64,000 nt of DNA, from positions 137,743 to 201,742 of the forward strand of contig CAYSKO010000001.1 in the NCBI GenBank assembly GCA_964431835.1. The letters run 5' to 3'. The stretch is from an uncultured Planctomycetia bacterium (lineage in GTDB: Bacteria > Omnitrophota > Gorgyraeia > 2-02-FULL-51-18). Shown one piece after another: positions 3,333 to 45,505 of the stretch. The notes below the pieces were generated by a model. The model worked only from the letters and a program-made list of their open reading frames with translations. It was not told the DNA's origin and ran no database searches. Position numbers and translations under genes: made by a program. Every line of letters starts with the position of its first letter. The stretch's first letter is position 1.

Positions 3333-5173
3333 AATCCATGGAAGCCCCCCTCAAATATCCTTACGGACTCATCGGCAACTGCCTGAGCGCGGCCCTCGTC
3401 TCGACCGACGGAAGCGTCGACTGGATGTGCATGCCTTATCTGGATTCCTCGTCCGTCTTTGCGAAGATCCTCGACACGGAAAAAGGAGGCTCGTTCAAGA
3501 TCGAGGGAGTGAACACGGTCCGCACGAGCCAGGAGTACGTGCGCTTCACGCCCATCCTCCGCACGCGTATCGAGACGACCGAAGGCGTCTTCGACGTCTA
3601 CGACTTCATGCCACGCTTCCTTTTGCCGGACGGAAATAATTTCTACTGCCCGTCCGAGATCCAGCGGAGCGTCCGGCTCATCTCGGGAAAGCCGAAGATC
3701 CGTGTCATCCTCGACGCGCGCCCGAATTACGGCGCCAGCGGCGTGCGGGTGGAAAACCACGGCGAGTTCCTGAAGTACGTCACCGACGCCGGTGAATACC
3801 ACAGTTATTACTTCTACACCGACGCCGATTTCGCGAACGTTCTAGAGCGCCGGGAGTTCGAGCTGACGCGCTCGATGTATTTCGTCCTTTCGTACCACCA
3901 GAAGATCCGGCCGTTCAACGCCGACCGCTCCTATGTGGAATTCGAACAGACGAAGAGCCACTGGCTGAGCTGGGCGAGCCGCACGAGCTACCCCGAGCGC
4001 CACCGCGAGCAGATCATCCGGTCGCTCATCACGCTCAAGCTCATGATGTACCAGCGGACCGGCGCGGTCATCGCAGCCCCGACCACCTCGCTTCCCGAGA
4101 TTGCAGGGAAGGACCGTAACTGGGATTACCGCTTCTGCTGGATCCGCGACGCGTCGATGATCATCGAGCTTTTTGCGCGTCTCGGCCACGGAGGCTCCTC
4201 GACCGGCTACATGAATTTCATCCTGGACCGGATGCTTCTTAAGAACGACGGCATCTCGGTTATGTACGGCATCCACGGCGAGAAGGTGCTCACCGAGAAG
4301 ATGCTGATGCATCTCGAGGGGTATCTCGGCTCGAAGCCGGTCCGCATCGGGAACGCCGCGCACACACAGACGCAGAACGACGTGTACGGCGAGCTCATCG
4401 ACGCGATCTACACGTTCTTCGAGGCTCAAGGGGGCGTGGGTTTCCATTTTGACCAAGAGCTTTGGACCGCGGTGCGTTCGCTCGTGAACTTTTCCCGCGC
4501 CACGTGGGAAACGCCCGACAACGGCATCTGGGAGTACCGCGGAGAGGTCCAGCACCACGTTTTTTCCAAGCTTATGAACTGGGTCGCGATGGACCGCGCG
4601 GGCCGGATCGCCCAGAGCATTGGCAAAAAGGCCTACGCCGAGGATTATTTCAAGACGGCCGAGCGCATCCGCGAAGACATCTTGAAGAACGGCTGGAATG
4701 AGAAGGTTCAGGCTTTCACGATGTACTACGGCTCGGACAACGCCGACGCGTCCGTGCTCCTCATGCTCCACTACGGTTTCCTCCCGAAAACCGACCCGCG
4801 CATGATTTCGACGGTGGATTTCTGCTACCGCGAACTTTTGCGCGATGGTGTCGTCATGCGTTACACGGCCTCCGATGACTTCGGCCGGCCGGAGAACGCC
4901 TTCCTCATCTGCACGTTCTGGATGGTGAACGCGCTTTACCTCGTCGGCCGCCAAAAAGAGGCCCGAACGATCTTCGATTCCGCGCTCGCCTCGGCCAACC
5001 ACCTCGGCCTCATGTCGGAGGGGCTTCAGCCCTCGACAGGCCGGCAGGTGGGGAACTTCCCGCAAGGCTACTCGCACATGGCGTTCATCCAATCGGCGAT
5101 GCTTCTCGAGACGGATTACGAATGGGGCTCGATGCGCGAGAAGTACGCGACGGGCCGAACCCGCGAAGAATAG
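3329..5173 (+). CDS. Glycoside hydrolase family 15 (glucoamylase/trehalase-like)
   Basis: N-terminus YGLIGNCLSAALVSTDGSVDWMCMP is the GH15 signature, and the size (614 aa) fits. GTG at 3329 overlaps the upstream stop; an ATG at 3338 is also possible. Confidence 0.8.
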   Translation: MKSMEAPLKYPYGLIGNCLSAALVSTDGSVDWMCMPYLDSSSVFAKILDTEKGGSFKIEGVNTVRTSQEYVRFTPILRTRIETTEGVFDVYDFMPRFLLPDGNNFYCPSEIQRSVRLISGKPKIRVILDARPNYGASGVRVENHGEFLKYVTDAGEYHSYYFYTDADFANVLERREFELTRSMYFVLSYHQKIRPFNADRSYVEFEQTKSHWLSWASRTSYPERHREQIIRSLITLKLMMYQRTGAVIAAPTTSLPEIAGKDRNWDYRFCWIRDASMIIELFARLGHGGSSTGYMNFILDRMLLKNDGISVMYGIHGEKVLTEKMLMHLEGYLGSKPVRIGNAAHTQTQNDVYGELIDAIYTFFEAQGGVGFHFDQELWTAVRSLVNFSRATWETPDNGIWEYRGEVQHHVFSKLMNWVAMDRAGRIAQSIGKKAYAEDYFKTAERIREDILKNGWNEKVQAFTMYYGSDNADASVLLMLHYGFLPKTDPRMISTVDFCYRELLRDGVVMRYTASDDFGRPENAFLICTFWMVNALYLVGRQKEARTIFDSALASANHLGLMSEGLQPSTGRQVGNFPQGYSHMAFIQSAMLLETDYEWGSMREKYATGRTREE

Positions 5174-5185
5174 AGCATACCCGCC

Positions 5186-7090
5186 TTGGCCCTCATCAGC
5201 ATCATCGAAGTCTCGCTCGCCCTCGGCGGCCCCCTCCTTTTCGACGGGGTGAGCCTGCAGGTGGAGTCCGGCGAGCGCATCGCTCTCCTCGGCCGCAATG
5301 GGGCCGGCAAGACCACTCTCATGAAGGTCATCGCCGGCGAGATGAAGGTCGACAAGGGCGAGATCGGCTATCAGAAGGGAATCAAGGTCGCGCACCTTCC
5401 GCAAGAGGTACCCACCGGCGTCACCGGCGTCGTGTACGACATCGTCCTCTCAGGGCTTCCGGAACGCGTGAAGCTCCTCGGCGAATTTCACCGCCTCCAT
5501 CACCGCCTCGAGACCGAACACACCGAGCAGCTCATGGGCCAGCTCGACGCGCTTCAGGCCGAGATGGACCGCACGAACGGCTGGGAGACCGAGCGCCAGA
5601 TCGAGGAAGTCCTTTCGCACATGAAGCTCGACCCCGACGCCGCGTTCGAATCGCTCTCCGGCGGTCAAAAAAGAAAAGTTCTCTTGGCTCGTGCGCTGGT
5701 TCTCCGGCCCGAAGTCCTCCTTCTCGACGAACCGACGAACCACCTCGACACCGATTCCATCGAATGGCTCGAAGGCTATCTCAAGGATTACCCCGGCACC
5801 CTCTTTTTCGTCACGCACGACCGCATGTTCATGACGCGTCTGGCGACGAAGATCGTCGAGCTCGACCGGGGCAAGCTCTACGCCTGGACCTGCGACTACC
5901 CGACGTTCCTCGAGCGCAAGAAGCTCGCGCTTCACACCGAGGCGATGGAGTGGGAGAAGTTCGACAAGAAACTCGCCCAGGAAGAAGTCTGGATCCGGCA
6001 GGGCATCAAGGCGCGGCGCACCCGCAATGAGGGCCGCGTGCGGGCGCTCGAGCGCCTGCGCGAAGAAAAGAAATCGCAGCGCCAGCTCATCGGCAAGGTC
6101 CGCATGAAGGCGCAGGAAGCCGAGCGTTCCGGCGCAGTCGTTACGAAAGCCGAGAACGTGTCGGTCGCGTTCGGCGAGAAGCGGCTCGTCCGCGATTTTT
6201 CGATCCGCATTCTCCGCGGGGACCGGATCGGGCTCATCGGCCCCAACGGCTGCGGCAAGACGACGCTCCTACGCACGCTCCTCGGGAAGCTCGAGCCGCA
6301 GTCCGGAACGGTGACGCTCGGCACGAACCTCGAGATATCCTATTACGACCAGCTGCGCGAGCAGCTCGACGAGAACAAATCGGTGACGGAGAACGTGAGC
6401 GGGGAAACCGACACGGTCGTGATCGACGGGCGGCCGCGCCACGTGCTCGGTTACCTGCAGGAATTCCTTTTCTCGCCGGACCGCGCGCGTACGAAGGTGA
6501 GGGTTCTCTCGGGCGGCGAGCGGAACCGGCTCCTTCTGGCACGTCTTTTCACGCGCACGTCGAACCTGCTCGTCATGGACGAGCCCACGAACGACCTGGA
6601 CGTGGAGACGCTCGAGCTCTTGGAAGAACTTCTAGTCTCTTATTCGGGAACGCTGCTCCTGGTCAGCCACGACCGCGCGTTTCTCAACAACGTCGTGACG
6701 TCGACCATCGTGTTCGAAGGAGACGGCGTCGTGTATGAACATCCGGGCGGTTACGACGACTGGCTGAACCGCCGCGAACTCGAGCCGGAGTCGCGAGAGC
6801 CGGAACGGAACGTCGAGAGCGCGCCCAAACGACCGGCTCCCGCGCCTGCCGTCGCCGCGGCGAAGCCCAAGAAGCTTTCCTCCAAGGAGCGCAAAGAACT
6901 CGAAGCGCTTCCGGCGCTCATCGAAAAGCTGGAAGCCGAGCAGGCTCAAATCGTCCAAAAGATGTCGAGCCCCCATTTTTCGATGAAGGACGTGGGAAAG
7001 ATCGCGGAGATCAAAGCGCGCCTGGCGGCACTGACGGAGGAGCTCAAGGCGGCGTACGCCCGCTGGGAAGCCCTGGAGGGTTCCGTATAA
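5186..7090 (+). CDS. uup: ABC-F family ATPase Uup (two ABC cassettes plus C-terminal coiled coil)
   Basis: Two Walker A motifs (GRNGAGKTT and GPNGCGKTT), LSGGQ/LSGGE signatures, and a charged coiled-coil tail. TTG start. Confidence 0.85.
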   Translation: MALISIIEVSLALGGPLLFDGVSLQVESGERIALLGRNGAGKTTLMKVIAGEMKVDKGEIGYQKGIKVAHLPQEVPTGVTGVVYDIVLSGLPERVKLLGEFHRLHHRLETEHTEQLMGQLDALQAEMDRTNGWETERQIEEVLSHMKLDPDAAFESLSGGQKRKVLLARALVLRPEVLLLDEPTNHLDTDSIEWLEGYLKDYPGTLFFVTHDRMFMTRLATKIVELDRGKLYAWTCDYPTFLERKKLALHTEAMEWEKFDKKLAQEEVWIRQGIKARRTRNEGRVRALERLREEKKSQRQLIGKVRMKAQEAERSGAVVTKAENVSVAFGEKRLVRDFSIRILRGDRIGLIGPNGCGKTTLLRTLLGKLEPQSGTVTLGTNLEISYYDQLREQLDENKSVTENVSGETDTVVIDGRPRHVLGYLQEFLFSPDRARTKVRVLSGGERNRLLLARLFTRTSNLLVMDEPTNDLDVETLELLEELLVSYSGTLLLVSHDRAFLNNVVTSTIVFEGDGVVYEHPGGYDDWLNRRELEPESREPERNVESAPKRPAPAPAVAAAKPKKLSSKERKELEALPALIEKLEAEQAQIVQKMSSPHFSMKDVGKIAEIKARLAALTEELKAAYARWEALEGSV

Positions 7091-7150
7091 ATTAATGTTT
7101 TTTTAATCGGATTCTAATGATTCATCGTTTAGATTAGTTCTTTCGCACCC
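7091..7150 (+). promoter_or_regulatory. AT-rich phased TAATC-hexamer module (copy A), uup to katE
   Basis: ATTAATGtttttTAATCGgattcTAATGA...: hexamers at 11-bp spacing, beginning directly after the uup stop TAA. Confidence 0.4.
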
Positions 7151-7181
7151 TCCCAAGTGTCAGGCTAACCGAAAGAAAACG

Positions 7182-9389
7182 ATGAAAAAATCCGATCGCA
7201 ACAATCCCGGTTCCAAGCCCATCCCCTACCTGAAAGACGCCAAAAAGAAACCGGTCACCAACGACAAGGTGGCGGACCTCCAGAAAAACACTGAAAAAGG
7301 AGTCGAAGATTCCTTTTTAACGACGAATACCGGCCTCCGGATTAACGACGATCAGAACTCGCTCAAAGCTGGGGACCGCGGCCCGTCCCTCCTCGAAGAC
7401 TTTCATTTAAGGGAAAAGATCACTCATTTCGACCACGAGCGCATCCCGGAGCGGATCGTTCATGCCCGGGGATCCGCGGCGCACGGTTTTTTCCAGGTTT
7501 ACGAATCTCTCGCGCCGTTGACCAAGGCGAAATTCCTCCAAGACCCCGCGGCAAAAACCCCGGTCTTCGTCCGCTTTTCGACGGTAGCTGGTTCGCGCGG
7601 CTCGACGGACTTGGCCCGTGACGTGCGCGGCTTCTCGGCCAAGTTTTACACCGAAGAGGGGAATTACGACCTCGTCGGCAACAACATGCCCGTGTTCTTC
7701 ATCCAGGACGCCATGAAGTTCCCGGATCTCGTTCACGCGGTCAAGCCCGAGCCGCATCACGAGATGCCTCAAGCGGCATCCGCCCACGACACCTTCTGGG
7801 ATTTCATCTCCCTGATGCCGGAATCCGCGCACATGGTCATGTGGCTTATGTCCGACCGCGCGATTCCCCGCAGTTACCGGATGATGGAAGGCTTCGGCGT
7901 CCACACCTTCCGCCTGATCAACGAAAAAGGCAAGGCGCGGTTCGTGAAGTTCCATTGGAAACCCGTTCTCGGCCTCCAATCGGTGGTTTGGGACGAGGCT
8001 CAGAAAATTTCCGGAAAAGACCCTGATTTTCACCGGCGGGATCTCTGGGAATCGATCGAGAACGGCGATTATCCGGAATGGGAACTCGGTCTCCAGATCG
8101 TCGAAGAGGAAGACGAGCACAAATTCGATTTCGACCTGTTGGACCCCACCAAGCTCATTCCCGAGGAGCTAGTGCCCGTTCGGCGGGTCGGCAAGCTCAC
8201 GCTGAACCGGAACCCCGACAATTTCTTCGCGGAAACGGAACAGGTGGCGTTTCATCCCGGCCACGTCGTCTCGGGGATCGATTTCTCGAACGACCCCCTT
8301 CTTCAGGGGAGGCTTTTTTCCTATACGGACACGCAGCTCATCCGGCTCGGGGGGCCTAACTTCAACGAGCTTCCGATCAACCGGCCGATCGCCCCGGTGC
8401 ACAACAATCAGCGCGACGGGTTCGGTCGGCAGACGATCAACCCCGGCTCGGTCAGCTACGAGCCAAATTCGATCGGCGGGGGGATGCCCGCCCAGGCGAA
8501 AGCGGCGATGGGCGGTTTCGTCAGCCATATGGAGAAAATAAGCGCGGCGAAGATACGCGGACGGAGCGAAAGCTTCCTGGATCATTTCAGTCAGGCGGCG
8601 CTTTTTTTCAACAGCCAGTCCGAAACGGAAAAAACGCACATGGTCCAGGCGCTCCGCTTCGAACTTGGGAAAGTGGAACGCCCGGAGATCCGGAAGCGGA
8701 TGGTGGGCATTCTTTCGCTCATCGACAAATCCCTCGCCGAACGCGTGGCCAAGGGCCTCGGCATCGAAGTGCCCGTCCCGGAGCAGCCGATCAACCACAG
8801 CGTCCCGGCGGACGCCGATCCGGCGAAACTGCAGCCGAAGCGCGTCAAAAAACAGCAGGCGCCTTCTCCCGCGCTCAGCATCGCCCGCGCTCCAAAGAAG
8901 GGAATCAAGACGCGGAAGGTCGCGTTTCTGGCCGCCGACGGCGTGGACGACGATTCGCTGGAGTCCGTGAAGGAGGCCCTTCTAGCCGAAGGAGCTCTCG
9001 TGAAGATCGTGGCGCCGAGGCTCGGGTTCCTGCGAAGCGCGAAAGGAAAGGAAATAAAGATCGATTTCAGTCTGCTCACGACCGCGTCGGTTCTCTTCGA
9101 CGCGGTGTACGTGCCGGGCGGCGAGAAGAGTGTCACGGCGCTCAAGGAAGAGGCCTCCGCGATCCACTTCGTCAATGAGGCGTACAAGCACTGCAAATCC
9201 GTCGCGGCGGCGGGGGCGGGTCTCAAGCTGATCGAGGCTTCCTTCATTGGCACCGGAAGTGAAGAGGCTGGCGTGGTTTTAAGCGCGGATCCGAAAGCAC
9301 CGAAGCTGGCTAAAGCCTTCGTGAAGGCGATCGAGGAGCAGCGCCACTGGAGCCGGGAAACGAAGGACGAGGTCCCCGTCCCGGCTTGA
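7182..9389 (+). CDS. katE: Large-subunit catalase HPII with C-terminal DJ-1/PfpI-like domain
   Basis: [33 protein letters not shown] and a 735-aa length are typical of HPII catalase. Confidence 0.9.
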
Positions 9390-9392
9390 GGT

Positions 9393-9456
9393 CTTTTTTA
9401 ATTTTTAATGTATTTCTAATCTATTTCTAATCCTTCTCTGCCATACTATTCGTTCT
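9393..9456 (+). promoter_or_regulatory. AT-rich phased TAATC-hexamer module (copy B), katE to BNR gene
   Basis: TAATGTatttcTAATCTatttcTAATCCttctc... followed by CATACT. Confidence 0.4.
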
Positions 9457-9487
9457 TTAGCGTTCGCTTACTATTAACAGCAGCGGG

Positions 9488-11761
9488 GTGAGTATGGATA
9501 GATTTGTTCGTTTCGTCGGTGCGGCCGTTCTCTTTTTCGGGTTTTTCGGTTCCGTGGCGGATGCGGCGGATCCGCGTCTGATTCTCTCGAAGGGGAAGGC
9601 GTCGTTCGGAACGCAGGACACGCGGCGCGGGGGCTCACCCGAAAGCCTGCAAGCCGCCGAAACCGCCCAAGCCGCCGCTATCTCGCACAAGAACGCACTC
9701 CAGGAACCTTCTAATTTTCTTTCCGCTCAAGCCGCCCCCTCTTTGATCGAGCCGTCCGTGACGGCACCGACCCAGGTCGGCTGGTCGGGCGGCAGCACGT
9801 ACCCCGCGATCGTCTACGATCCGAAAATCCGCGGCCGGGCGTATACGCTTTCGGATTCCTCCGGCTTCTATCGCTCCGAAAACGGAGGCGCTACGTGGCA
9901 AGCCGCCAATCAGGGCGTCGTGAACCTCGCGGTCGCGTCGCTCGCCATCGCCCCGTCAAATTCCAACGTTCTCTACATGGGTTCGACCGCCGGCGTGCAC
10001 CGCTCGAACGACGCCGGAAAGACCTGGACCTTCTCCGAGGCGTCGCGCGGGAAGATCCCGTTTAAAAGGCTCGCGAGTTACAAGGCGCTCGCCGTCGACG
10101 CGCTGAACGTCAATAAAGTGTACGCGGGCTCCTCGGCTGGCCAGGTGTTCCATTCCGCCGACGGGGGAACGAGCTGGACGCAGGTGGGAACGCTCGCCAT
10201 CGGCGTGCCGGTGAGCGCGCTCCACCTGACGCGCGACGGCAGGCTCTTCGCCGGTTCTTCGAAAGGCCTCATGACGTACCAGGGCGGGACGTGGCAAAAG
10301 GTCGCACTCAAGAGCGACCACGTGTACGACATCGTCTCGATCATGCACAACGGCAAGGAGACGCTTTACGTCACGAACGGCCGCAACGTCGCTCATTCGA
10401 GCGACCTCGGCGTCCCGACGGTGTGGTGGTACGCCGGCATGGTGCCGAAATTCAACGCCGCGACGGACGGATGGATCAACCGCATCGCGGTGAGGCAGCA
10501 TCCGAGAACCGGCAAGGTCGAGGTGCTCGCGTCGCTTAAAAAGGACTGGAACGGCCGCCTTTTCCTGGGTACGAACCACGGCGAGTCGTGGAAGGAGATC
10601 GGTCTCAATTTCAACAACGACCCTCTCGCGAATCCGACGCGCGAGTGGAAGAAAAGCGGCGCGAACCAGTGGCTCGCCGTCGCGTTCGACCCATTCAATA
10701 CCGAGACGTTCACGATCGCCGACGACTGGGGCCTCTGGAAGACGACCGACTCCGGCGCGAGCTGGAACGAAAGCATCGCGGGCACGCCCAACGTGATGGG
10801 GACCTCGATCGTTCGCGATCCGCTCACGGGCACTTATCTCGTGGGCACGATGGACAACGGCCTGGTCGAGCTGAATCCGCAGACGGGCGCGATGAAGGCG
10901 GTGTTTCCGAACGCCTCGACTCCCTGGCAGCTTCATGGCCACGTCTGGAAGGCGGAAGTGCTTCCGAACGGAAACCGGATTCTTGCGGTTTCGCCTTGGA
11001 ACAGTGCGTCGAACGTCGTGGTCGTGGTGCGTCCCGACGGAACGACGGCCCTCGCGAACGGCCTTCCGGCGCTCTATCCCAAGACGAACACCGTCTGGGA
11101 GAAGGGCTACATGCGCACGCTCGCGGTCGATCCGTCGAACCCGGATAAACTTTACCTGGGAATCGACGGCAACGACGGCGGCGGACTTTACGTCTCCACG
11201 GACGGGGGGCTCAACTGGGCGCGTTCCGCGGGTCAGCCCGCGTCGCTCCGTGTCTACAACGGCCTCGCGGTCGATCCCGTCGAAACGAACCGCCTTTTCT
11301 GGGGAGCGATGGGTTCCGGCGGTGGCGTGTACCGTTCGCTCGACGCGGGCGGTACGTGGACGCGCGTGTTCACCGGCTCCTACAACGTCTCGGACGTGGT
11401 CGTCGGCCCGGATCAAACGGTGTACGCCGGAGGCGATACCGGTGGCCCCGCGCTTTACGTTTCGCGCGACAAGGGCGCGACGTGGGGAATGCTTAAGAAA
11501 TTCGAAGGCACGGGCACGCTTCAGGCGATCACGATCGACCCGAACGATCCCAAGCGTATGGTCGTGAGCTCCCGCAAATGGGGCGACTCCACGGGCGCGA
11601 AAGTCTATTTCACGGCGGACGCCGGAAAGACGTGGAAGGAAGTCGCCGCAACCGGCCTGCCTAATACGTCCGGAGCCGCGGACGCCGTTTTCAGCCAGGA
11701 CGGAAAATCGCTGTATCTTCTCATGACCGCCGGTTCTCTTTACCAGGTACCGCTCCCGTGA
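9488..11761 (+). CDS. Secreted BNR/Asp-box repeat protein (sialidase/GH74-like double beta-propeller), paralog 1
   Basis: Signal peptide plus at least 8 S-x-D-x-G-x-T-W motifs (SENGGATW, SNDAGKTW, SADGGTSW and others). An ATG at 9494 is an alternative start. Confidence 0.65.
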   Translation: MSMDRFVRFVGAAVLFFGFFGSVADAADPRLILSKGKASFGTQDTRRGGSPESLQAAETAQAAAISHKNALQEPSNFLSAQAAPSLIEPSVTAPTQVGWSGGSTYPAIVYDPKIRGRAYTLSDSSGFYRSENGGATWQAANQGVVNLAVASLAIAPSNSNVLYMGSTAGVHRSNDAGKTWTFSEASRGKIPFKRLASYKALAVDALNVNKVYAGSSAGQVFHSADGGTSWTQVGTLAIGVPVSALHLTRDGRLFAGSSKGLMTYQGGTWQKVALKSDHVYDIVSIMHNGKETLYVTNGRNVAHSSDLGVPTVWWYAGMVPKFNAATDGWINRIAVRQHPRTGKVEVLASLKKDWNGRLFLGTNHGESWKEIGLNFNNDPLANPTREWKKSGANQWLAVAFDPFNTETFTIADDWGLWKTTDSGASWNESIAGTPNVMGTSIVRDPLTGTYLVGTMDNGLVELNPQTGAMKAVFPNASTPWQLHGHVWKAEVLPNGNRILAVSPWNSASNVVVVVRPDGTTALANGLPALYPKTNTVWEKGYMRTLAVDPSNPDKLYLGIDGNDGGGLYVSTDGGLNWARSAGQPASLRVYNGLAVDPVETNRLFWGAMGSGGGVYRSLDAGGTWTRVFTGSYNVSDVVVGPDQTVYAGGDTGGPALYVSRDKGATWGMLKKFEGTGTLQAITIDPNDPKRMVVSSRKWGDSTGAKVYFTADAGKTWKEVAATGLPNTSGAADAVFSQDGKSLYLLMTAGSLYQVPLP

Positions 11762-12666
11762 CGGATCCCGCCCGTTCCACCCCGATGCCGAAAGCGTCGA
11801 TTCTCATCGTCGACGACGTGCCGGCCAATCTCATTGCGCTGGAAGCGGTTCTTTCCGAATACGACGTCGTGTCGGCGAAATCCGGCCAAGAGGCTTTGGA
11901 TGTCTTGAAGGACCGAAACTTCAACGTGATCCTCCTCGACATCCAAATGCCGGGAATGGACGGCTTCGAAGCAGCGCGCCGCATGAAGCAGATGAGCACG
12001 TACCACGGCACGCCGATCATCTTCGTCACGGCGAACTTCAAGGACGACCCGTACGTGAAAAAAGGATACGAAGCGGGCGGCGTCGATTACTTCACGAAAC
12101 CTTTCGACCCGGACATCCTTCGGATGAAGGTCGGTATCTACGCGTCGTTCCATCAGAAGACGAGCCTCCTCAAGGAGCGCGAAGAAAGGATCCGGCAATC
12201 GGAGGAACTGTTGAAAGCGGGCCATAAGCTGGCCGGGGTCCTCGAATCGCTCCCCGTGGGGGTGATCATCTCAGACGCCAAGGGAGGCATTCTCCAGACG
12301 AACGACGCGGTGCTCCGGATTTGGAAATCCATCGATCCGTCGCGGAAGGATTCCGCCGGAGAATTCTTGAAATGGTGGACGACGGCGGGAACGGCCATGA
12401 AAGACGCGTTCGCGACGACGTTAAGCACCGGTAGCTCGTCCCACAACGAGGTGCTCGACATCCAGTGCTTCGACGGAACCTGCAAGGCGATCTTGGTTTC
12501 CGTCTCTCCGCTCCTGGGAATCGACGACCAGATGGTAGGCGCCGTCGCCGTCGCCCAGGACATCACCGAGCACCGGAAGATCGAAGCCCACATGGAGGAG
12601 AGCATCATGAAGCTCGTTTCTATCGGCGTCGAGCTCCAGCAGATCGGCCCCACCGCTCCCGCCTGA
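11758..12666 (+). CDS. Response regulator with receiver plus PAS domain
   Basis: ILIVDDVPANL...LLDIQMPGMDG receiver followed by a PAS-like segment. GTG at 11758 overlaps the upstream stop; an ATG at 11785 is also possible. Confidence 0.7.
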   Translation: MTDPARSTPMPKASILIVDDVPANLIALEAVLSEYDVVSAKSGQEALDVLKDRNFNVILLDIQMPGMDGFEAARRMKQMSTYHGTPIIFVTANFKDDPYVKKGYEAGGVDYFTKPFDPDILRMKVGIYASFHQKTSLLKEREERIRQSEELLKAGHKLAGVLESLPVGVIISDAKGGILQTNDAVLRIWKSIDPSRKDSAGEFLKWWTTAGTAMKDAFATTLSTGSSSHNEVLDIQCFDGTCKAILVSVSPLLGIDDQMVGAVAVAQDITEHRKIEAHMEESIMKLVSIGVELQQIGPTAPA

Positions 12667-12671
12667 CAGGC

Positions 12672-12765
12672 TTAGAATTAGCTTTTTTTAATCCGCTTCT
12701 AATCCCGCTTTAATCCGTCCTTTCGTATACTGATTTCATCGTCGGATCCGCCTTTTCGTATCATT
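12672..12765 (+). promoter_or_regulatory. AT-rich phased TAATC-hexamer module (copy C) with duplicated TTTCGTATACT / TTTCGTATCAT boxes
   Basis: TTAATCCgcttcTAATCCcgcttTAATCCgtccTTTCGTATACT, then CCTTTTCGTATCAT. Confidence 0.45.
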
Positions 12766-12801
12766 CCGGGCCGAGCTTTCCTTAGATCAACGGAGGATTT
12801 T

Positions 12802-13317
12802 ATGCCCGCTAAAAAAAGCTCCAACAGCTCTACCGCCAGCAAGAAGAAGTCCAAGACGTACATCGATCTTCTCATCGCCGACCACGACAAAGTACGCGCG
12901 CTCTTCAAGCGGTTCGAAAAGACCGAAGACGACGATCAGAAGCGCGAAATCGTCGAGACCACGATCCTCGAGCTCAAGATTCATGCGACGATCGAAGAGG
13001 AGATCGTGTATCCCGCCTTCCGTGAGAACGAGGTCGTGGAAGAGGACATGATGGACGAGGCGGACGTCGAGCACGAAGTCGCCAAAAACCTCATCGCCGA
13101 GCTCGAGAACATGAAGCCGGGCGACGAATACTACGACGCGAAATTCACGGTGCTTTGCGAAATCATCGAGCACCACGCCGAGGAGGAAGAGGAAGAGATC
13201 TTCCCCGAAGCGCGTAAATCGAAAGAGATCGACGCGGAAGACATTACGGGCCGCGTCGCGGACCGCAAGCAGCAGCTGATGCAGGAACTCGGCGCGGAGC
13301 TCGCGGAAGCAAAATAA
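12802..13317 (+). CDS. Hemerythrin HHE cation-binding domain protein
   Basis: Repeated H/E ligands (IADHDK, IHATIEEE, VEHEV, IIEHHAEEEEE). RBS is AACGGAGGA. Confidence 0.7.
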   Translation: MPAKKSSNSSTASKKKSKTYIDLLIADHDKVRALFKRFEKTEDDDQKREIVETTILELKIHATIEEEIVYPAFRENEVVEEDMMDEADVEHEVAKNLIAELENMKPGDEYYDAKFTVLCEIIEHHAEEEEEEIFPEARKSKEIDAEDITGRVADRKQQLMQELGAELAEAK

Positions 13318-22690: not shown

Positions 22691-23203
22691 ATGGATTTCC
22701 GACGCATTTCCCCCCACCGCAAGACCGAACGCCAGTTCTACGTTCTCGCCCTCAGTAAAAGCCACGTCCGTCTTTTCGCCTGCGACATGCACGGCTTCCG
22801 CGAAATGGAGCTGGGCGGCGCCGTGCCCGAAGGCATGTCCGAGGCGATGAAATACACGGACGCGGAGAAGCAGTCCCAGTCACACACGCTCTCGTCGCGC
22901 CCCGGCCAAAGCCCGCAGGGGATGGGACACGGCCACGGCGTCGGACGGGACGACGAAAAGATGCGCGCGGAGGAGTATTTCCGTGAAGTCTCCGCCGGCG
23001 TGGCCGACATCCTGCGGGGCGACCGCTCGCCGATGGTCCTTGCGGCGGTGGAATACCTGGTTCCGATTTACCGGAAAGTGAACCGTTATGCGCACCTCCT
23101 GGACGAATTGATCCACGGGTCTCCGGACCGTCTTTCGGGGCGGGAACTTCACACGAAAGCGGTCGAGCTCATGAGGCACCAGATTATGAAAGACCGCTTT
23201 TAG
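22691..23203 (+). CDS. Hypothetical protein (170 aa)
   Basis: SD AAGGAGG. Gly/His-rich internal stretch GMGHGHGVG. Confidence 0.45.
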   Translation: MDFRRISPHRKTERQFYVLALSKSHVRLFACDMHGFREMELGGAVPEGMSEAMKYTDAEKQSQSHTLSSRPGQSPQGMGHGHGVGRDDEKMRAEEYFREVSAGVADILRGDRSPMVLAAVEYLVPIYRKVNRYAHLLDELIHGSPDRLSGRELHTKAVELMRHQIMKDRF

Positions 23204-38454: not shown

Positions 38455-39540
38455 ATGTCCGCCCCTCTAAAGACCGCCGCGATCGTTGCGGCGGTTTCGT
38501 TTGTTACTCTTCTGGTTCTCGCCGCGGCGCTTCTGGCCGTCGAAGGCTACCCGGCGATGGCGTCCGTCGTCCGGGAATGGTCTGCACCGCGCCCCTCGGC
38601 CGAACGCCTGCACACCGGGTTCGATCCCGATCTCGGATGGATCAATCTTCCGAACCTGCGCTTGAAGGATCTGTACGCCCCGGGTGCTTCGCTTTCCACG
38701 AACGCGCGCGGCTTCCGCGGGCTCCGGGAAACCTCCGACCGCCCGTCCCCCCGAAAGTTTCGCGTGATTTGTTCCGGCGATTCGTTCACGCTCGGCTACG
38801 GCGTCGACGACGCAGAAACCTGGCCCGCGGCGCTTGAGCGACTGGAACCGCGCGTGGACACCGTGAATCTGGGGCTCGGCGGCTACGGCGTCGATCAGTC
38901 GTACCTGCGCTTTCGCCGCGACGCCGCCCCACTCCAACACGACCTGCACGTTCTGGCTTTCATCTACGCCGATTTCGAGCGCATGAAAAGCCGCCAGTTC
39001 TTCGGCTATTCGAAGCCGCACTTGAGCGTCGAGCACGGCCGCTTGCGCGTCGAGCCTCCGCTGGTTTCCGATGGGGAGCCCGGGCCGCCGTCCCGTCTTT
39101 CGCGGATGCTCGTGGCGTTGCACCGGCTGGAAACCGTCCGGTTCTTCGAGAGCTTCGCGCGTCGCCACGTGCTCTCCGCCGACGACGCGGAGGTTCGGGC
39201 CGTGGCGCTGGCCATCTTCGAGGAGCTCGACCGCGAAAGCCGCCACCGGGGCGGCCGCTTCGTGGCCGTGTACCTGCCGACGCTCATGGACGAGGATCCG
39301 ACCCGGCTCGACGGGCTCCGGGCCTTCCTCACACGGGAACTCGGCAATCGCGGAATCCCGTTTATCGATTTGACGACGGAGTTCCGCCGTCTTCCCGGAA
39401 AACGGCTTGAAAGCCTTTTCATCGACGGCCGAGATTCCAAGTTCCTGGGCGCCGACGGCCATTACACTCCCGCCGGAAACCGCCTCGTCGCGCGGCTCCT
39501 CCGCGACCGTCTGCCTCTCCCAAAGAAGCGCCCCGCTTAA
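38455..39540 (+). CDS. Membrane-anchored SGNH/GDSL hydrolase
   Basis: TM anchor and ICSGDSFTLGYGV block I. Confidence 0.65.
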   Translation: MSAPLKTAAIVAAVSFVTLLVLAAALLAVEGYPAMASVVREWSAPRPSAERLHTGFDPDLGWINLPNLRLKDLYAPGASLSTNARGFRGLRETSDRPSPRKFRVICSGDSFTLGYGVDDAETWPAALERLEPRVDTVNLGLGGYGVDQSYLRFRRDAAPLQHDLHVLAFIYADFERMKSRQFFGYSKPHLSVEHGRLRVEPPLVSDGEPGPPSRLSRMLVALHRLETVRFFESFARRHVLSADDAEVRAVALAIFEELDRESRHRGGRFVAVYLPTLMDEDPTRLDGLRAFLTRELGNRGIPFIDLTTEFRRLPGKRLESLFIDGRDSKFLGADGHYTPAGNRLVARLLRDRLPLPKKRPA

Positions 39541-39647
39541 AATCTTCTAACGCGCGCGAACGCGTGGCGCGGCAGTTGGAGGAAATCCAAAAAACGCACA
39601 CCGCGATGAGCCAGCTCCAGAGCGAACTTAAACGCTAGAAAACCCCC

Positions 39648-39676
39648 TTGTATTTTGAACGAACGTTCAATATAAT
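39648..39676 (+). promoter_or_regulatory. Promoter TTGTAT-17-TATAAT with embedded palindrome TTGAACG-AA-CGTTCAA (Cheo/LexA-like GAAC-N4-GTTC). ATG is 6 nt downstream (leaderless)
   Basis: Palindrome at 39655-39670, inside the spacer. Confidence 0.5.
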
Positions 39677-39682
39677 GGAAGC

Positions 39683-40747
39683 ATGGTCCTCCAGAACAAA
39701 CCCCTCAGAGGCCGCGGAGCCGCGGAAAACCCTAAAAACCGTTTCGTGGAGTCGTCTTTCGAGCGGGACGACGAAGCCTGGGAGGACCCCGAGGCGCCCT
39801 CTCCGCAGACCCGTTTCTTCGAGAGCAAGGCGCGCACGGCCGTCACGTTCAACGACAGTCCCGACGTGGGACCTGGCGCAACCCTCAATCCTTACCGAGG
39901 ATGCGAGCACGGTTGCATCTATTGCTACGCACGGCCCACGCACGAGTACTTCGGTTTTTCGGGCGGACTGGATTTCGAAACGAAAATTCTCATGAAGCCG
40001 GATCTTCCCGAGACGCTCCGGAAAGAGCTTTCGTCGAAACGGTGGAAGCCGCAGACGATCGCGATGAGCGGCGTCACCGACTGCTACCAGCCCGCCGAGC
40101 GGCAATTCGGCCTCACGCGCCGCTGTTTGGAAGTGCTCGCCGAATTTCGGAATCCGGTCGTCGTCGTCACGAAGAATTTCCTCGTGACGCGCGACGCCGA
40201 TCATTTGGCGGCCTTGGCCGTCCACCGCGCGTCCCTCGTCGTCCTTTCCGTCACGACCCTCGACCCGGACTTAAGCCGCGTCATGGAACCGCGTGCGTCT
40301 CATCCCAAAAAAAGGCTAGAAGCGATCGAGGCGCTCACTCGCGCGGGAATTCCGGTGACCGTGAACATCGCACCCGTGATTCCGGGGCTCACGGATCACG
40401 AGATCCCCGCGATTCTCGCCGCGACGCGGGCGGCCGGAGCGCTTTCGGCCTCGTTTATTCCCGTGCGGCTGCCGCACGGCAACGCCGCTTTGTTCGAGGA
40501 GTGGCTGGGCCGCCACTTTCCCGGCCGTAAGGATAAGATCCTCAACCGCATCCGCGAAATGCGCGGGGGAAAGCTCAACGACGCGCGTTTCGGTTCCCGG
40601 ATGTCGGGGGAGGGGCTTTTCGCGGATCAAATGGCGAGTCTGTTCGACGTCGCTTACCGGAAGGCCGGTTTTCCGGAGGAAGGTCCGCGGCTGTCGGTGG
40701 CCGCGTTCCGGCGGCCCTCTCCACCGGACCTCTTTCCCGGGTTTTGA
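39683..40747 (+). CDS. Radical SAM DNA-repair-type protein (SplB/COG1533-like)
   Basis: NPYRGCEHGCIYCYA cluster and size. Confidence 0.75.
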   Translation: MVLQNKPLRGRGAAENPKNRFVESSFERDDEAWEDPEAPSPQTRFFESKARTAVTFNDSPDVGPGATLNPYRGCEHGCIYCYARPTHEYFGFSGGLDFETKILMKPDLPETLRKELSSKRWKPQTIAMSGVTDCYQPAERQFGLTRRCLEVLAEFRNPVVVVTKNFLVTRDADHLAALAVHRASLVVLSVTTLDPDLSRVMEPRASHPKKRLEAIEALTRAGIPVTVNIAPVIPGLTDHEIPAILAATRAAGALSASFIPVRLPHGNAALFEEWLGRHFPGRKDKILNRIREMRGGKLNDARFGSRMSGEGLFADQMASLFDVAYRKAGFPEEGPRLSVAAFRRPSPPDLFPGF

Positions 40748-40800
40748 TTAAAAAAAATTAATCCAAAATTAAGCTCTCCTTAATCGCTCCGGGAGTATGC
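40747..40800 (+). promoter_or_regulatory. AT-rich phased hexamer module (copy K) ending in TATGCT
   Basis: TGATTAAaaaaaatTAATCCaaaatTAAGCTctcctTAATCG...GAGTATGCT. Confidence 0.4.
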
Positions 40801-40820
40801 TGTCGAGAGGAGGTCCAAGA

Positions 40821-41921
40821 ATGACGAGAGCCTCGCTCGGCGAAGCTAAAAGCTTCTTCGCCGCCATGTTCAAGGAATTCATGGCCGACAAATGCTTCCA
40901 TTTGTCGGCTGCGCTCTCGTATTACACGCTATTCTCGCTCGCGCCGTTTCTGATCCTCGTGATCGCGGTGGCGGGCCTTTTTTTCGGCCGTGAAGCGGTG
41001 ACCGGTGAGATCTTTCAACAGCTGCGCGGGCTGATCGGCGCCGAGGGAGCCGCCGCGATCCAGGAGATGATCGAGAAGGCGGGCGCTCCCAAGGCGGGGC
41101 GGTGGGCCGCGGCGCTCGGAGCGGGAACCCTTCTTTTGGGCGCGACCACCGTCTTCATTCAGCTCCAAGACGCGCTGAACATGATTTGGAGCGTCAAGGC
41201 GAAGCCGAAGCGCGGAATTTTCAAGATGGTGCGGGACCGACTCCTATCCTTCGGGATGATCCTCGGGGTGGGTTTTCTGCTGCTCGTTTCTCTCGCCGCC
41301 CACGGGCTTATCACCATTCTTTCGCGCTGGCTCGAGCACGCGCTCCCGTATTTTCCGGTCGCGGTAGTCCGCGCGATAGAAATCGCCGTCTCGTTCGGCA
41401 TGACGGGTCTTCTCTTCGCGATGCTTTTCAAGTTCCTTCCCGACGCGAAAGTGCGCTGGCGCGACACATGGATCGGCGCGTTCGCGACGGCCGGACTTTT
41501 TTCAGCAGGCAAGGTGATGATCGGCCTTTACCTGGGTCAAAGCAACCTCGCTTCGACGTACGGGGCCGCCGCCGCCATCGTCCTGGTCATCCTTTGGGTG
41601 AATTACTCCTCGCTGATCCTTTTTTTCGGCGCCGAATTTACGCAGGTCTGGGCTTGCCGCTACGGCACCGAGATCGTTCCCCGCGATTACGCGGTCCGCG
41701 TGAAAAAGCTCGAGGAAGTCGTCGAAGCCGGGCCGGACGCCGAACTGACCCCGCCGCCGCCGTCCCCGCCGCCGCGCCGCACAGGCTTCCGGGACCCGGA
41801 GCTCGACCGGAAAATTGTCCGCTCGGCGATGGAGCTTGCGGCGCTTTCCGCGTTGTCCCGCGTTCTCCTTCGATGGAAAGAACGCCGCGAACGAAAACGC
41901 GGCGGACGTTCGGCCGCGTGA
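40821..41921 (+). CDS. YihY/BrkB family inner membrane protein
   Basis: ALSYYTLFSLAPFLIL and multiple TM helices. SD GAGAGGAGG. Confidence 0.75.
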   Translation: MTRASLGEAKSFFAAMFKEFMADKCFHLSAALSYYTLFSLAPFLILVIAVAGLFFGREAVTGEIFQQLRGLIGAEGAAAIQEMIEKAGAPKAGRWAAALGAGTLLLGATTVFIQLQDALNMIWSVKAKPKRGIFKMVRDRLLSFGMILGVGFLLLVSLAAHGLITILSRWLEHALPYFPVAVVRAIEIAVSFGMTGLLFAMLFKFLPDAKVRWRDTWIGAFATAGLFSAGKVMIGLYLGQSNLASTYGAAAAIVLVILWVNYSSLILFFGAEFTQVWACRYGTEIVPRDYAVRVKKLEEVVEAGPDAELTPPPPSPPPRRTGFRDPELDRKIVRSAMELAALSALSRVLLRWKERRERKRGGRSAA

Positions 41922-44379: not shown

Positions 44380-44445
44380 TCAATTAAAAATTTTTAATAA
44401 TATTCTAACCCGTCCTTAACGTCCTTTCGGTTATCCTAACTCTCG
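44380..44445 (+). promoter_or_regulatory. AT-rich phased hexamer module (copy L)
   Basis: TAAaaattttTAATAAtattcTAACCCgtccTTAACG...TATCCTAACTC. Confidence 0.4.
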
Positions 44446-45450: not shown

Positions 45451-45505
45451 ATTAGAATTTTCTAATCGGATTCTAACCCGCCTTTAACTTCGCTTTTCGT
45501 ATACT
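45451..45505 (+). promoter_or_regulatory. AT-rich phased hexamer module (copy M) with TTTAAC-11-TATACT
   Basis: ATTAGAAttttcTAATCGgattcTAACCCgccTTTAACttcgcttttcgTATACT. Confidence 0.45.

What the first reader, a model, noticed from the sequence alone, without database searches (positions are those of the whole stretch)
39648..40747. Cheo/LexA-type palindrome inside the promoter of a SplB-like radical-SAM DNA repair gene
The promoter TTGTAT-17-TATAAT is leaderless: the ATG is 6 nt after the -10 box. Its spacer contains the perfect inverted repeat TTGAACG-AA-CGTTCAA (39655-39670). This fits GAAC-N4-GTTC, the core of Gram-positive/Actinobacterial-type LexA (Cheo) boxes, and it overlaps the RNA polymerase footprint.

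The downstream gene belongs to the COG1533/SplB-like radical SAM family, which is linked to DNA photoproduct repair. This is a plausible SOS-regulated repair gene.
Basis: partly seen in the sequence, partly recalled or inferred. Interest (0 to 1): 0.55.

Follow-up and report, generated by a model that had tools for sequence, protein, structure and literature searches.

The report
LexA (SOS) operator before repair-type radical-SAM gene

Summary
TTGTAT (39648-39653), a 17-nt spacer holding the perfect dyad TTGAACG-AA-CGTTCAA (39655-39670), TATAAT (39671-39676) and an ATG 6 nt later (39683) are all present.

The palindrome alone is not beyond chance. The window has 16 perfect 7-N2-7 palindromes, and GAAC-N4-GTTC occurs 5 times against 2.1 expected. 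Comparison makes it significant:
- The three closest orthologues (68-71% protein identity) keep TTGACA-N-TTGAACGA[A/T]CGTTCAA-TATAnT exactly, while their flanks have diverged.
- The same operator, in the same promoter position, precedes a lexA/Y-family-polymerase operon on a contig from the same samples. That contig has near-identical composition (tetranucleotide r = 0.989), so it is almost certainly the same organism.
- The operator also precedes lexA in five further members of that LexA clade, which NCBI names Candidatus Omnitrophica.

The gene is a PA0069-family radical SAM protein, the "splB"/COG1533 gene of the SOS literature. It is not a true spore photoproduct lyase. This family is already known as a LexA target in Actinobacteria, Proteobacteria, Verrucomicrobia and Bacteroidetes, and I saw lineage-typical LexA boxes upstream of 12 of 80 orthologues.

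Verdict: interpretation supported; a new member of a known kind. LexA binding, damage induction and the leaderless start remain untested.

The parts
39648..39653 (+). -35 hexamer TTGTAT (weak, 3 of 6 matches to TTGACA)
   Evidence: Read directly. It aligns with a perfect TTGACA in 8 of 8 related rSAM and lexA promoters.
39655..39670 (.). Putative LexA operator TTGAACGAACGTTCAA (dyad GAACG-N2-CGTTC, a GAAC-N4-GTTC type). It fills the -35/-10 spacer.
   Evidence: Searches show the site. It scores 28.4 bits on the clade matrix and is the only strong site in the window. It is identical or differs only at the central base in orthologous promoters L087, L089 and L090. The same element lies upstream of lexA in L213, L137, L218, L219, L220 and L223. 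AACG..CGTTC is invariant in alignment A2.
39671..39676 (+). -10 hexamer TATAAT (perfect)
   Evidence: Read. It aligns with TATAAT, TATACT, TATAGT or TATATT in all related promoters.
39683..39683 (+). Inferred transcription start coinciding with the A of the ATG (leaderless mRNA)
   Evidence: This is an inference. The ATG lies 6 nt after the -10 hexamer with no room for a Shine-Dalgarno sequence. The same 6-7 nt spacing recurs in L087 and L090 (rSAM) and in L137 and L219 (lexA), whereas L089, L213, L218 and L220 have leaders with GGAG-type ribosome sites.
39683..40747 (+). PA0069-family radical SAM protein (354 aa; the COG1533 'SplB-like / DNA repair photolyase' annotation), with CX3CX2C at C74-C78-C81
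   Evidence: NCBIfam NF033668 scores 451.3 bits against a cut-off of 360, and Pfam Radical_SAM gives 1.5e-20.

Best explanation
The palindrome is the operator of the organism's LexA-family repressor.

Proposed mechanism:
1. A LexA dimer binds the 16-bp dyad TTGAACG-N2-CGTTCAA. This dyad occupies the whole 17-nt spacer between the -35 and -10 hexamers, so bound LexA keeps RNA polymerase off the promoter.
2. After DNA damage, RecA filaments trigger LexA self-cleavage. The predicted cleavage site is Ala79-Gly80, with Ser114 and Lys152 as the catalytic dyad.
3. The promoter opens and a probably leaderless mRNA for a PA0069-family radical SAM enzyme is made.
4. The enzyme presumably acts on damaged DNA. 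Its substrate is unknown.

Shown here: the sequence elements; their exact conservation in orthologous promoters; the same operator upstream of the lexA/Y-family-polymerase operon of what is very probably the same organism, and of five further clade members; the family assignment of both proteins; and lineage-typical LexA boxes upstream of orthologues in other phyla.

Inferred: physical binding, repression, damage induction, the transcription start and the enzyme's function.
For: 1. Phylogenetic footprint. The three closest orthologues (68-71% amino-acid identity, partly syntenic with leuCD and the Lactamase_B gene) carry TTGACA-[A/T]-TTGAACGA[A/T]CGTTCAA-TATA[A/C/G]T directly before the gene. 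Sequence further upstream is unalignable.

2. Autoregulation signature. P0126 is a 194-aa LexA-family protein. TIGR00498 scores 112.1 against a cut-off of 110.95, and it aligns over its full length with E. coli LexA, keeping the Ala-Gly site and the Ser and Lys residues. It is found in JGI 3300020057, SRR6448207, SRR6448212 and SRR6448209, which are the samples that hold the window's gene. Its contig has 60.3% GC and a tetranucleotide correlation of 0.989 with the window. The next best value is 0.94, for a related organism, and seven unrelated loci give 0.28-0.80. Its promoter is CTTGACA-A-TTGAACGGTCGTTCAA-TATACT.

3. The same operator in the same spacer position precedes lexA in L137, L218, L219, L220 and L223.

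4. Family precedent seen directly. Among 80 orthologue loci from reference genomes, CTGT-N8-ACAG precedes the gene in 5 beta/gamma-proteobacterial loci, GTTC-N7-GTTC in 5 alphaproteobacterial loci and TGTTC-N4-GAACA in 2 verrucomicrobial loci.

5. Literature. splB/COG1533 is called a core LexA-regulon gene, with gel-shift proof in Verrucomicrobium spinosum and Opitutus terrae (PMC4951493). Bacteroidetes show the same (PMC8565304). ChIP-seq in M. tuberculosis places LexA at Rv2578c/Rv2579 (PMC3381160).

6. No known RNA family lies in the region.
Against: - No binding or expression data exist for this lineage.
- That the lexA contig and the window come from one organism is inferred from co-occurrence and composition. 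It is not proven by a shared contig.
- Only two transcription units (lexA-polymerase and the rSAM gene) could be linked to the operator. recA, uvrA and imuA-imuB-dnaE2 could not be reached.
- P0126 only just passes the LexA model. Its C-terminal domain scores better as UmuD, and Pfam LexA_DNA_bind is below threshold (13.1 against 23.7 bits). It could therefore be a specialised LexA paralogue rather than the global SOS repressor.
- The same 16-mer pattern is also used elsewhere in nature next to TetR-family genes.
- Orthologues at 67% identity or less (L091, L221, L222) lack the site.
Confidence: 0.85

Rival explanations
1. The palindrome is the operator of a different repressor, for example a TetR-family protein, which binds the same dyad and controls the gene for reasons unrelated to DNA damage.
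For: In the capped metagenome scan for TTGAACGNNCGTTCAA, five or six apparently intergenic hits lie next to TetR-family genes (L093, L135, L172, L175, L189). TetR proteins that use this dyad therefore exist.
Against: - No TetR homologue of those types is found in the window, nor next to the site in any related locus. The only match is one marginal hit about 8 kb away in L220 (E = 0.007).
- The neighbouring genes are a GDSL esterase and a YihY/BrkB membrane protein.
- The TetR-linked sites have different flanks (CTTGAACG..CGTTCAAG) and are not embedded in the TTGACA/TATAnT frame.
- The operator travels with lexA in 6 of 6 clade members examined.
Confidence: 0.05
2. The conserved block is simply a strong, conserved promoter whose spacer happens to be palindromic. 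No repressor is involved.
For: The whole -35/spacer/-10 block is conserved as a unit. Perfect 7-N2-7 palindromes are common in the window, 16 of them.
Against: - Promoter spacers are normally free to vary. Here the invariant positions are exactly the symmetric AACG..CGTTC, while the two central bases vary (AA, AT, GT, TT), which is the pattern of a dimer-binding dyad.
- The arms change in a symmetric way in L218 and L219 (TAGAACG..CGTTCTA).
- The block is shared only by lexA and a known SOS-family gene.
Confidence: 0.05
3. The site is a chance palindrome with no function.
For: Within the window alone the core motif is not enriched: 5 occurrences against 2.08 expected, with 9 of 100 shuffles reaching 5.
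Against: The site is conserved exactly across four organisms whose encoded proteins are only 68-71% identical. It recurs upstream of six lexA genes.
Confidence: 0.01

Closest known systems
LexA-regulated splB (COG1533 radical SAM) promoters of Verrucomicrobia (V. spinosum VSP_RS12190, O. terrae OTER_RS07185; PMC4951493)
   Same: An orthologous gene family with a single LexA dyad in the promoter. It is part of a small core regulon together with lexA and a translesion-polymerase operon. Verrucomicrobia belong to the PVC group, to which Omnitrophota is usually linked (my own knowledge).
   Different: The dyad there is TGTTC-N4-GAACA, with half-sites in the opposite orientation. Here it is GAACG-N2-CGTTC. 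Binding there was shown by gel shift; here nothing has been tested.
Cheo box / Gram-positive SOS box: B. subtilis CGAAC-N4-GTTCG and M. tuberculosis TCGAAC-N4-GTTCGA, including the ChIP-seq site at Rv2578c/Rv2579 (PMC3381160)
   Same: The same GAAC-N4-GTTC core. In M. tuberculosis it also lies before a radical SAM gene of the sister family (Rv2578c).
   Different: The outer flank is T/A here (TTGAAC...GTTCAA or TAGAAC...GTTCTA), not C/G. The inner bases G and C are fixed (GAACG-N2-CGTTC). The LexA recognition helix differs: SKNAAFWLVKRL here, against SSSTVHGHLARL in B. subtilis. The organism is not a Firmicute or an Actinobacterium.
Pseudomonas aeruginosa PA0069, type member of NF033668, listed among LexA-regulated genes (Cirz et al. 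2006, as cited in PMC4951493)
   Same: The same NCBIfam family (451 bits against a cut-off of 360). A LexA box lies upstream, as seen here in the Ectopseudomonas orthologue L072 (CTGT-N8-ACAG).
   Different: The gammaproteobacterial 16-bp box CTGT-N8-ACAG is a different LexA specificity.
lexA-dinB operons of Geobacter and the UmuD-like repressor UmuDAb of Acinetobacter (my own knowledge, not checked in the library)
   Same: The clade's lexA is always co-transcribed with a Y-family polymerase. Its catalytic domain is UmuD-like.
   Different: The operator sequence and lineage differ. UmuDAb is not adjacent to a polymerase gene. No function has been tested here.

Membership tests
LexA operator of the GAAC-N4-GTTC (Cheo-box) type | Inverted repeat GAAC-N4-GTTC | tested here: met
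   GAACGAACGTTC lies at 39657-39668.
LexA operator of the GAAC-N4-GTTC (Cheo-box) type | Outer flanks as in Bacillus or Mycobacterium (CGAAC...GTTCG, TCGAAC...GTTCGA) | tested here: not met
   The flanks are TTGAAC...GTTCAA, or TAGAAC...GTTCTA in L218 and L219. This is a lineage variant of the core.
LexA operator of the GAAC-N4-GTTC (Cheo-box) type | Lies in or overlaps the promoter of the regulated gene | tested here: met
   It fills the 17-nt spacer between the -35 and -10 hexamers in the window and in 9 related promoters. The promoter itself is inferred from consensus only.
LexA operator of the GAAC-N4-GTTC (Cheo-box) type | The same motif precedes the lineage's own lexA (autoregulation) | tested here: met
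   L213, from the same samples and with tetranucleotide r = 0.989, carries TTGAACGGTCGTTCAA 46 nt before lexA. The motif is also present in L137, L218, L219, L220 and L223.
LexA operator of the GAAC-N4-GTTC (Cheo-box) type | Motif upstream of further SOS genes (recA, uvrA, imuA-imuB-dnaE2, ruvAB) in the same genome | not testable with these tools
   The window holds no lexA or recA. The rest of the genome could not be fetched. Only the Y-family polymerase downstream of lexA is linked.
LexA operator of the GAAC-N4-GTTC (Cheo-box) type | Bound by LexA in vitro, with the gene induced by DNA damage in a RecA-dependent way | not testable with these tools
   This needs an experiment.
PA0069 family radical SAM protein (NCBIfam NF033668) | Whole-protein HMM score above the curated cut-off | tested here: met
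   451.3 bits against 360, covering residues 9-346 of 354.
PA0069 family radical SAM protein (NCBIfam NF033668) | Radical SAM CX3CX2C cluster motif | tested here: met
   C74-E-H-G-C78-I-Y-C81 in the translation. Pfam PF04055 gives 1.5e-20.
Spore photoproduct lyase proper (SplB; TIGR03886 family) | HMM score above the cut-off, or sequence relation to solved SPL structures | tested here: not met
   16 bits against a cut-off of 437.55. No PDB chain matches at E <= 0.01.
Rv2578c family radical SAM protein (NF038135) | HMM score above the cut-off | tested here: not met
   207.2 bits against 430. It is a sister family, not this one.
LexA repressor (TIGR00498), for the regulator P0126 | Full-length HMM match above the cut-off | tested here: met
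   112.1 bits against 110.95, covering residues 11-193. This is marginal. The UmuD subfamily model NF007621 also passes (117.5 against 110) for the C-terminal domain.
LexA repressor (TIGR00498), for the regulator P0126 | Ala-Gly cleavage site and Ser/Lys catalytic dyad | tested here: met
   The alignment with E. coli LexA places A79-G80, S114 and K152 opposite A84-G85, S119 and K156.
LexA repressor (TIGR00498), for the regulator P0126 | Pfam LexA_DNA_bind N-terminal domain | tested here: not met
   13.1 bits against 23.7. The N-terminus still aligns with E. coli LexA residues 10-69 and with solved LexA chains from residues 14-21 onward.
Leaderless mRNA | Transcription start at or within a few bases of the start codon, with no Shine-Dalgarno sequence | tested here: inconclusive
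   The geometry fits: the ATG lies 6 nt after TATAAT. It recurs in 4 related promoters, while 4 others have leaders with ribosome sites. No transcript-end data exist.
TetR-family operator (rival) | Adjacent or divergent TetR-family gene | tested here: not met
   There is no TetR homologue in the window or beside the site in related loci. The neighbours are a GDSL esterase and YihY.

The most novel reading that the evidence does not exclude
This site, together with the lexA promoters found here, would be the first definition of the SOS box of Omnitrophota (candidate phylum OP3). The box is GAACG-N2-CGTTC, placed in the spacer of TTGACA/TATAnT promoters, which are often leaderless.

The visible regulon would be small: lexA with a Y-family polymerase, plus the PA0069 radical SAM gene. 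A relative of the PVC group would then keep the Gram-positive-type dyad, while Verrucomicrobia use the flipped TGTTC-N4-GAACA.

In addition, the repressor's C-terminal domain is UmuD'-like. The residues after the predicted cut, GFPSPAEEE, mirror E. coli UmuD' (GFPSPAADY). One self-cleavage might therefore both derepress the regulon and release an accessory factor for the co-transcribed polymerase.
Probability: 0.35. Interest if true: 0.5.

Novelty: new member of a known kind. Interest (0 to 1): 0.3.

Why it matters
It adds one more phylum, known only from metagenomes, to the list of lineages in which a COG1533/PA0069 radical SAM gene sits under LexA control. That strengthens the published view that this uncharacterised enzyme is an ancient core SOS function worth biochemical study.

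It also gives a usable operator model (TTGAACG-N2-CGTTCAA) for annotating SOS regulons in Omnitrophota genomes. It bears on the proposed evolutionary path between GAAC-N4-GTTC and the verrucomicrobial TGTTC-N4-GAACA motif. It does not reveal a new mechanism.

Tried and rejected
- I searched the window and all fetched loci for lexA and recA by tblastn. None is in the window.
- The consensus promoter scan does not call the window's promoter, because its -35 hexamer matches at only 3 of 6 positions.
- The metagenome scan for TTGAACGNNCGTTCAA stopped at 120 loci. Most hits were uninformative: 10 lie in the N-terminal coding sequence of ffh (SRP54), many are inside ORFs, and 5-6 lie next to TetR genes. 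None was upstream of an rSAM gene. Only L137 was useful, and it led to the LexA clade.
- I rejected the TetR-operator idea because no TetR gene is near any of the rSAM or lexA sites.
- Orthologues L091, L221 and L222 (66-67% identity) lack the operator, so the footprint is confined to the close lineage.
- I looked up P0180 hoping to find the lexA of the L087 organism. It is instead a LexA paralogue on a conjugative element from another sample, though it still carries the operator.
- The rSAM protein has no sequence relative in the PDB.
- There is no Rfam family in the region.
- The paper library holds nothing on LexA in Omnitrophica.
- A matrix scan of the window found no second credible site.

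Full report
**The observation.** Reading 39400-40900 confirms every element. TTGTAT lies at 39648-39653. A 17-nt spacer follows, and positions 39655-39670 within it are the perfect dyad TTGAACG-AA-CGTTCAA. TATAAT lies at 39671-39676, followed by six bases (GGAAGC) and the ATG at 39683. That ATG opens a 354-codon ORF ending at 40747, and it is the first start codon after an in-frame stop.

The -35 hexamer is weak, matching TTGACA at 3 of 6 positions. This is why the consensus scan reports no promoter here.

Taken alone, the palindrome is not remarkable. GAAC-N4-GTTC occurs five times in the window against 2.08 expected, and 9 of 100 shuffles reach five. Perfect 7-N2-7 palindromes occur 16 times against about 6 expected. 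However, this is the only GAAC-N4-GTTC copy outside a long ORF.

**The gene.** Pfam finds a Radical_SAM domain (1.5e-20). NCBIfam assigns the protein to the PA0069 family: NF033668 scores 451.3 bits against a cut-off of 360. The sister family Rv2578c scores 207 against 430. The spore-photoproduct-lyase family scores 16 against 437.55, and no PDB chain is related by sequence. It is therefore the COG1533 "SplB-like / DNA repair photolyase" gene of the annotation pipelines, but not a true SPL. The CX3CX2C motif is C74-C78-C81.

The neighbours are a GDSL-type esterase upstream and a YihY/BrkB membrane protein downstream. The downstream gene differs in relatives, so no conserved operon is evident.

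**The family is a known SOS target, and this can be seen directly.** I fetched 80 orthologue loci from reference genomes and searched 200 nt upstream for published LexA motifs.
- CTGT-N8-ACAG precedes the gene in Caballeronia, Ectopseudomonas, Trinickia and two other beta/gamma-type loci.
- GTTC-N7-GTTC precedes it in Micavibrio, Thalassospira, Asticcacaulis and two further alphaproteobacterial loci.
- TGTTC-N4-GAACA precedes it in a Chthoniobacterales locus and a Verrucomicrobiae locus.

This matches the literature. [quoted passage not shown] It shows gel shifts on two splB promoters and cites LexA control of the orthologous group in Actinobacteria and in Gamma-, Beta- and Alphaproteobacteria. 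PMC8565304 lists splB among core SOS genes of Bacteroidetes. PMC3381160 finds a LexA ChIP-seq peak at Rv2578c/Rv2579.

**Phylogenetic footprint.** The protein search showed that the lineage is sparsely sampled, with the nearest relatives at 68-71% identity. I fetched their contigs, and the promoters read as follows:
- L087: CTTGACA-A-TTGAACGAACGTTCAA-TATAAT-CCCGGT-ATG
- L089: CTTGACA-T-TTGAACGATCGTTCAA-TATACT, followed by a 19-nt leader with GGAGG
- L090: CTTGACA-A-TTGAACGATCGTTCAA-TATAGT-GTGTTTC-ATG

Everything further upstream is unalignable. L087 and L089 share synteny with the window through leuCD, DUF3309, the GDSL gene or the Lactamase_B gene. Orthologues at 66-67% identity from other lineages (L091, L221, L222) lack the element.

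**The link to lexA.** The window has no lexA or recA. I scanned metagenome contigs for TTGAACGNNCGTTCAA, and the scan stopped at 120 loci. Most were uninformative: ten were ffh coding sequence, many lay inside ORFs, and five or six sat next to TetR genes.

One locus, L137, carried TTGACA-A-TTGAACGTTCGTTCAA-TATACT-TAGGTC-ATG in front of a 193-aa protein with an N-terminal helix-turn-helix region and a Peptidase_S24 domain. A Y-family polymerase gene follows it.

Searching with that protein returned a clade whose named members are "LexA repressor [Candidatus Omnitrophica bacterium]". One member, P0126 (70% identical), is encoded in JGI 3300020057, SRR6448207, SRR6448212 and SRR6448209. These are the samples that hold the window's rSAM gene.
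- Its contig has 60.3% GC, against 62.0% for the window.
- Its tetranucleotide correlation with the window is 0.989. The related organism L087 gives 0.94, and seven unrelated loci give 0.28-0.80.
- I take it to be the same organism, with roughly 85-90% confidence.

Its promoter follows a clear intrinsic terminator and reads CTTGACA-A-TTGAACGGTCGTTCAA-TATACT. A 26-nt leader with AAGGAG comes next, and then lexA, which overlaps a Y-family polymerase gene.

Four further lexA loci of the clade show the same design:
- L218: TAGAACGGTCGTTCTA
- L219: TAGAACGTTCGTTCTA
- L220: CTAAACGATCGTTCAG
- L223: CTGAACGTTCGTTTAG

In the alignment of nine promoters (four rSAM and the lexA promoters of L213, L137, L218, L219 and L220), the invariant columns are AACG..CGTTC plus promoter positions. 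The two central bases vary, and the outer arm bases change symmetrically. That is the signature of a dimer-binding dyad.

A matrix built from these sites scores the window's site at 28.4 bits. The next best window sites score 14.9 and 14.4 bits, both inside ORFs, and shuffled sequence reaches up to 19.5 bits.

**The regulator.** P0126 passes the LexA equivalog model narrowly (112.1 against 110.95 bits, full length). It aligns with E. coli LexA from residue 9 to 191, with A79-G80, S114 and K152 opposite the cleavage site and catalytic dyad. Its recognition helix (SKNAAFWLVKRL) differs from those of both E. coli and B. subtilis.

Its C-terminal domain is closer to UmuD than to LexA. The UmuD subfamily model scores 117.5 against 110, and the best PDB hits are UmuD and UmuD'. 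Pfam LexA_DNA_bind is below threshold. It could therefore be a specialised paralogue, which is the main caveat.

**Taxonomy.** The window's Uup protein lies on the same 235,456-bp NCBI contig as the rSAM gene. Eleven of the twelve named homologues are labelled Candidatus Omnitrophica or Omnitrophota. Uup and Tex are 74% and 61% identical to those of L220, a member of the LexA clade. The paper library holds nothing on LexA in this phylum.

**Mechanism.** A LexA dimer on a dyad that fills the -35/-10 spacer would exclude RNA polymerase. RecA-stimulated self-cleavage would then derepress the promoter. The ATG lies 6-7 nt after the -10 hexamer in the window, L087, L090, L137 and L219, which argues for leaderless transcripts. 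L089, L213, L218 and L220 have leaders with ribosome-binding sites. No Rfam family matches the region.

**Rivals.**
- A TetR or other repressor is possible in principle, since such dyads occur next to TetR genes elsewhere. No TetR gene accompanies any of the ten sites.
- A repressor-free conserved promoter does not explain the symmetric conservation pattern.
- Chance is excluded by the conservation.

**Verdict.** This is a new member, in Omnitrophota, of a well-known kind: a LexA box before the COG1533/PA0069 radical SAM gene. Interest is modest, unless the UmuD'-like nature of the repressor proves functional.

Noticed in passing
L213:10001-11864 (also L137, L218, L219, L220): The clade's LexA has a UmuD'-like C-terminal domain. 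The residues after the predicted Ala79-Gly80 cut read GFPSPAEEE, against E. coli UmuD' GFPSPAADY. The best PDB hits are UmuD and UmuD', ahead of LexA. In these five loci the gene is followed by, or overlaps, a Y-family polymerase gene. Self-cleavage might therefore both derepress the regulon and make a polymerase accessory factor.
   Followed up: partly
L223:9285-10582: A LexA paralogue (P0180) sits after an SRAP (SOS-response-associated peptidase) gene on an element with conjugation genes (TraG, TrbC, TraC, TrbL, CagX, TrbI) and integrases. Its promoter, TTGACA-TA-CTGAACGTTCGTTTAG-TATATT, keeps the operator.
   Followed up: partly
L089:3717-4661: In one close relative the rSAM gene is followed, without a gap, by an AlkA/HhH-GPD-type DNA glycosylase gene. 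This fits a DNA-repair role for the rSAM protein.
   Followed up: partly
L175:8205, L189:1082, L128:2964, L196:1339: GC-rich metagenome contigs carry CTTGAACGNNCGTTCAAG palindromes. In L175 and L189 they lie next to TetR-family genes. L128 and L196 share the 28-bp palindrome CATATCTTGAACGATCGTTCAAGATATG, whose neighbouring genes I did not identify. These look like operators that share the core dyad but are probably not LexA sites.
   Followed up: partly
L015, L024, L030, L023/L041 (upstream of the rSAM orthologue): Orthologue promoters in other phyla hold their own palindromes: Bdellovibrionota ACCATACATTTGTATGGT, Planctomycetia ATCATGATACAAATGTCCATCATGAT, Vampirovibrio ATCGAATAAATTTTCGAT, and Balneolaceae repeats of the TATATGT..ACATATA type. 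These are candidate LexA boxes for lineages without a described motif.
   Followed up: no
window 44383-44398 and 45451-45466: Two AT-rich perfect palindromes, ATTAAAAATTTTTAAT and ATTAGAATTTTCTAAT, lie just after the stop codons of the Lactamase_B-type gene and a response-regulator gene, in an otherwise 62% GC window.
   Followed up: no
window 3329-13317 and 22691-23203: The window is rich in stress and dormancy genes: a trehalase, catalase HPII, a PA2171-family ribosome-binding persister protein and a weak match to a ribosome hibernation factor. A DUF3309 protein and a BON-domain protein lie near the rSAM gene.
   Followed up: no
L095, L115, L116, L123, L124, L141, L148, L149, L152, L187: Ten of the 120 metagenome hits to TTGAACGNNCGTTCAA lie in the N-terminal coding region of ffh (SRP54). 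This is a conserved coding sequence, not a regulatory site, and a caution for pattern-only scans.
   Followed up: yes
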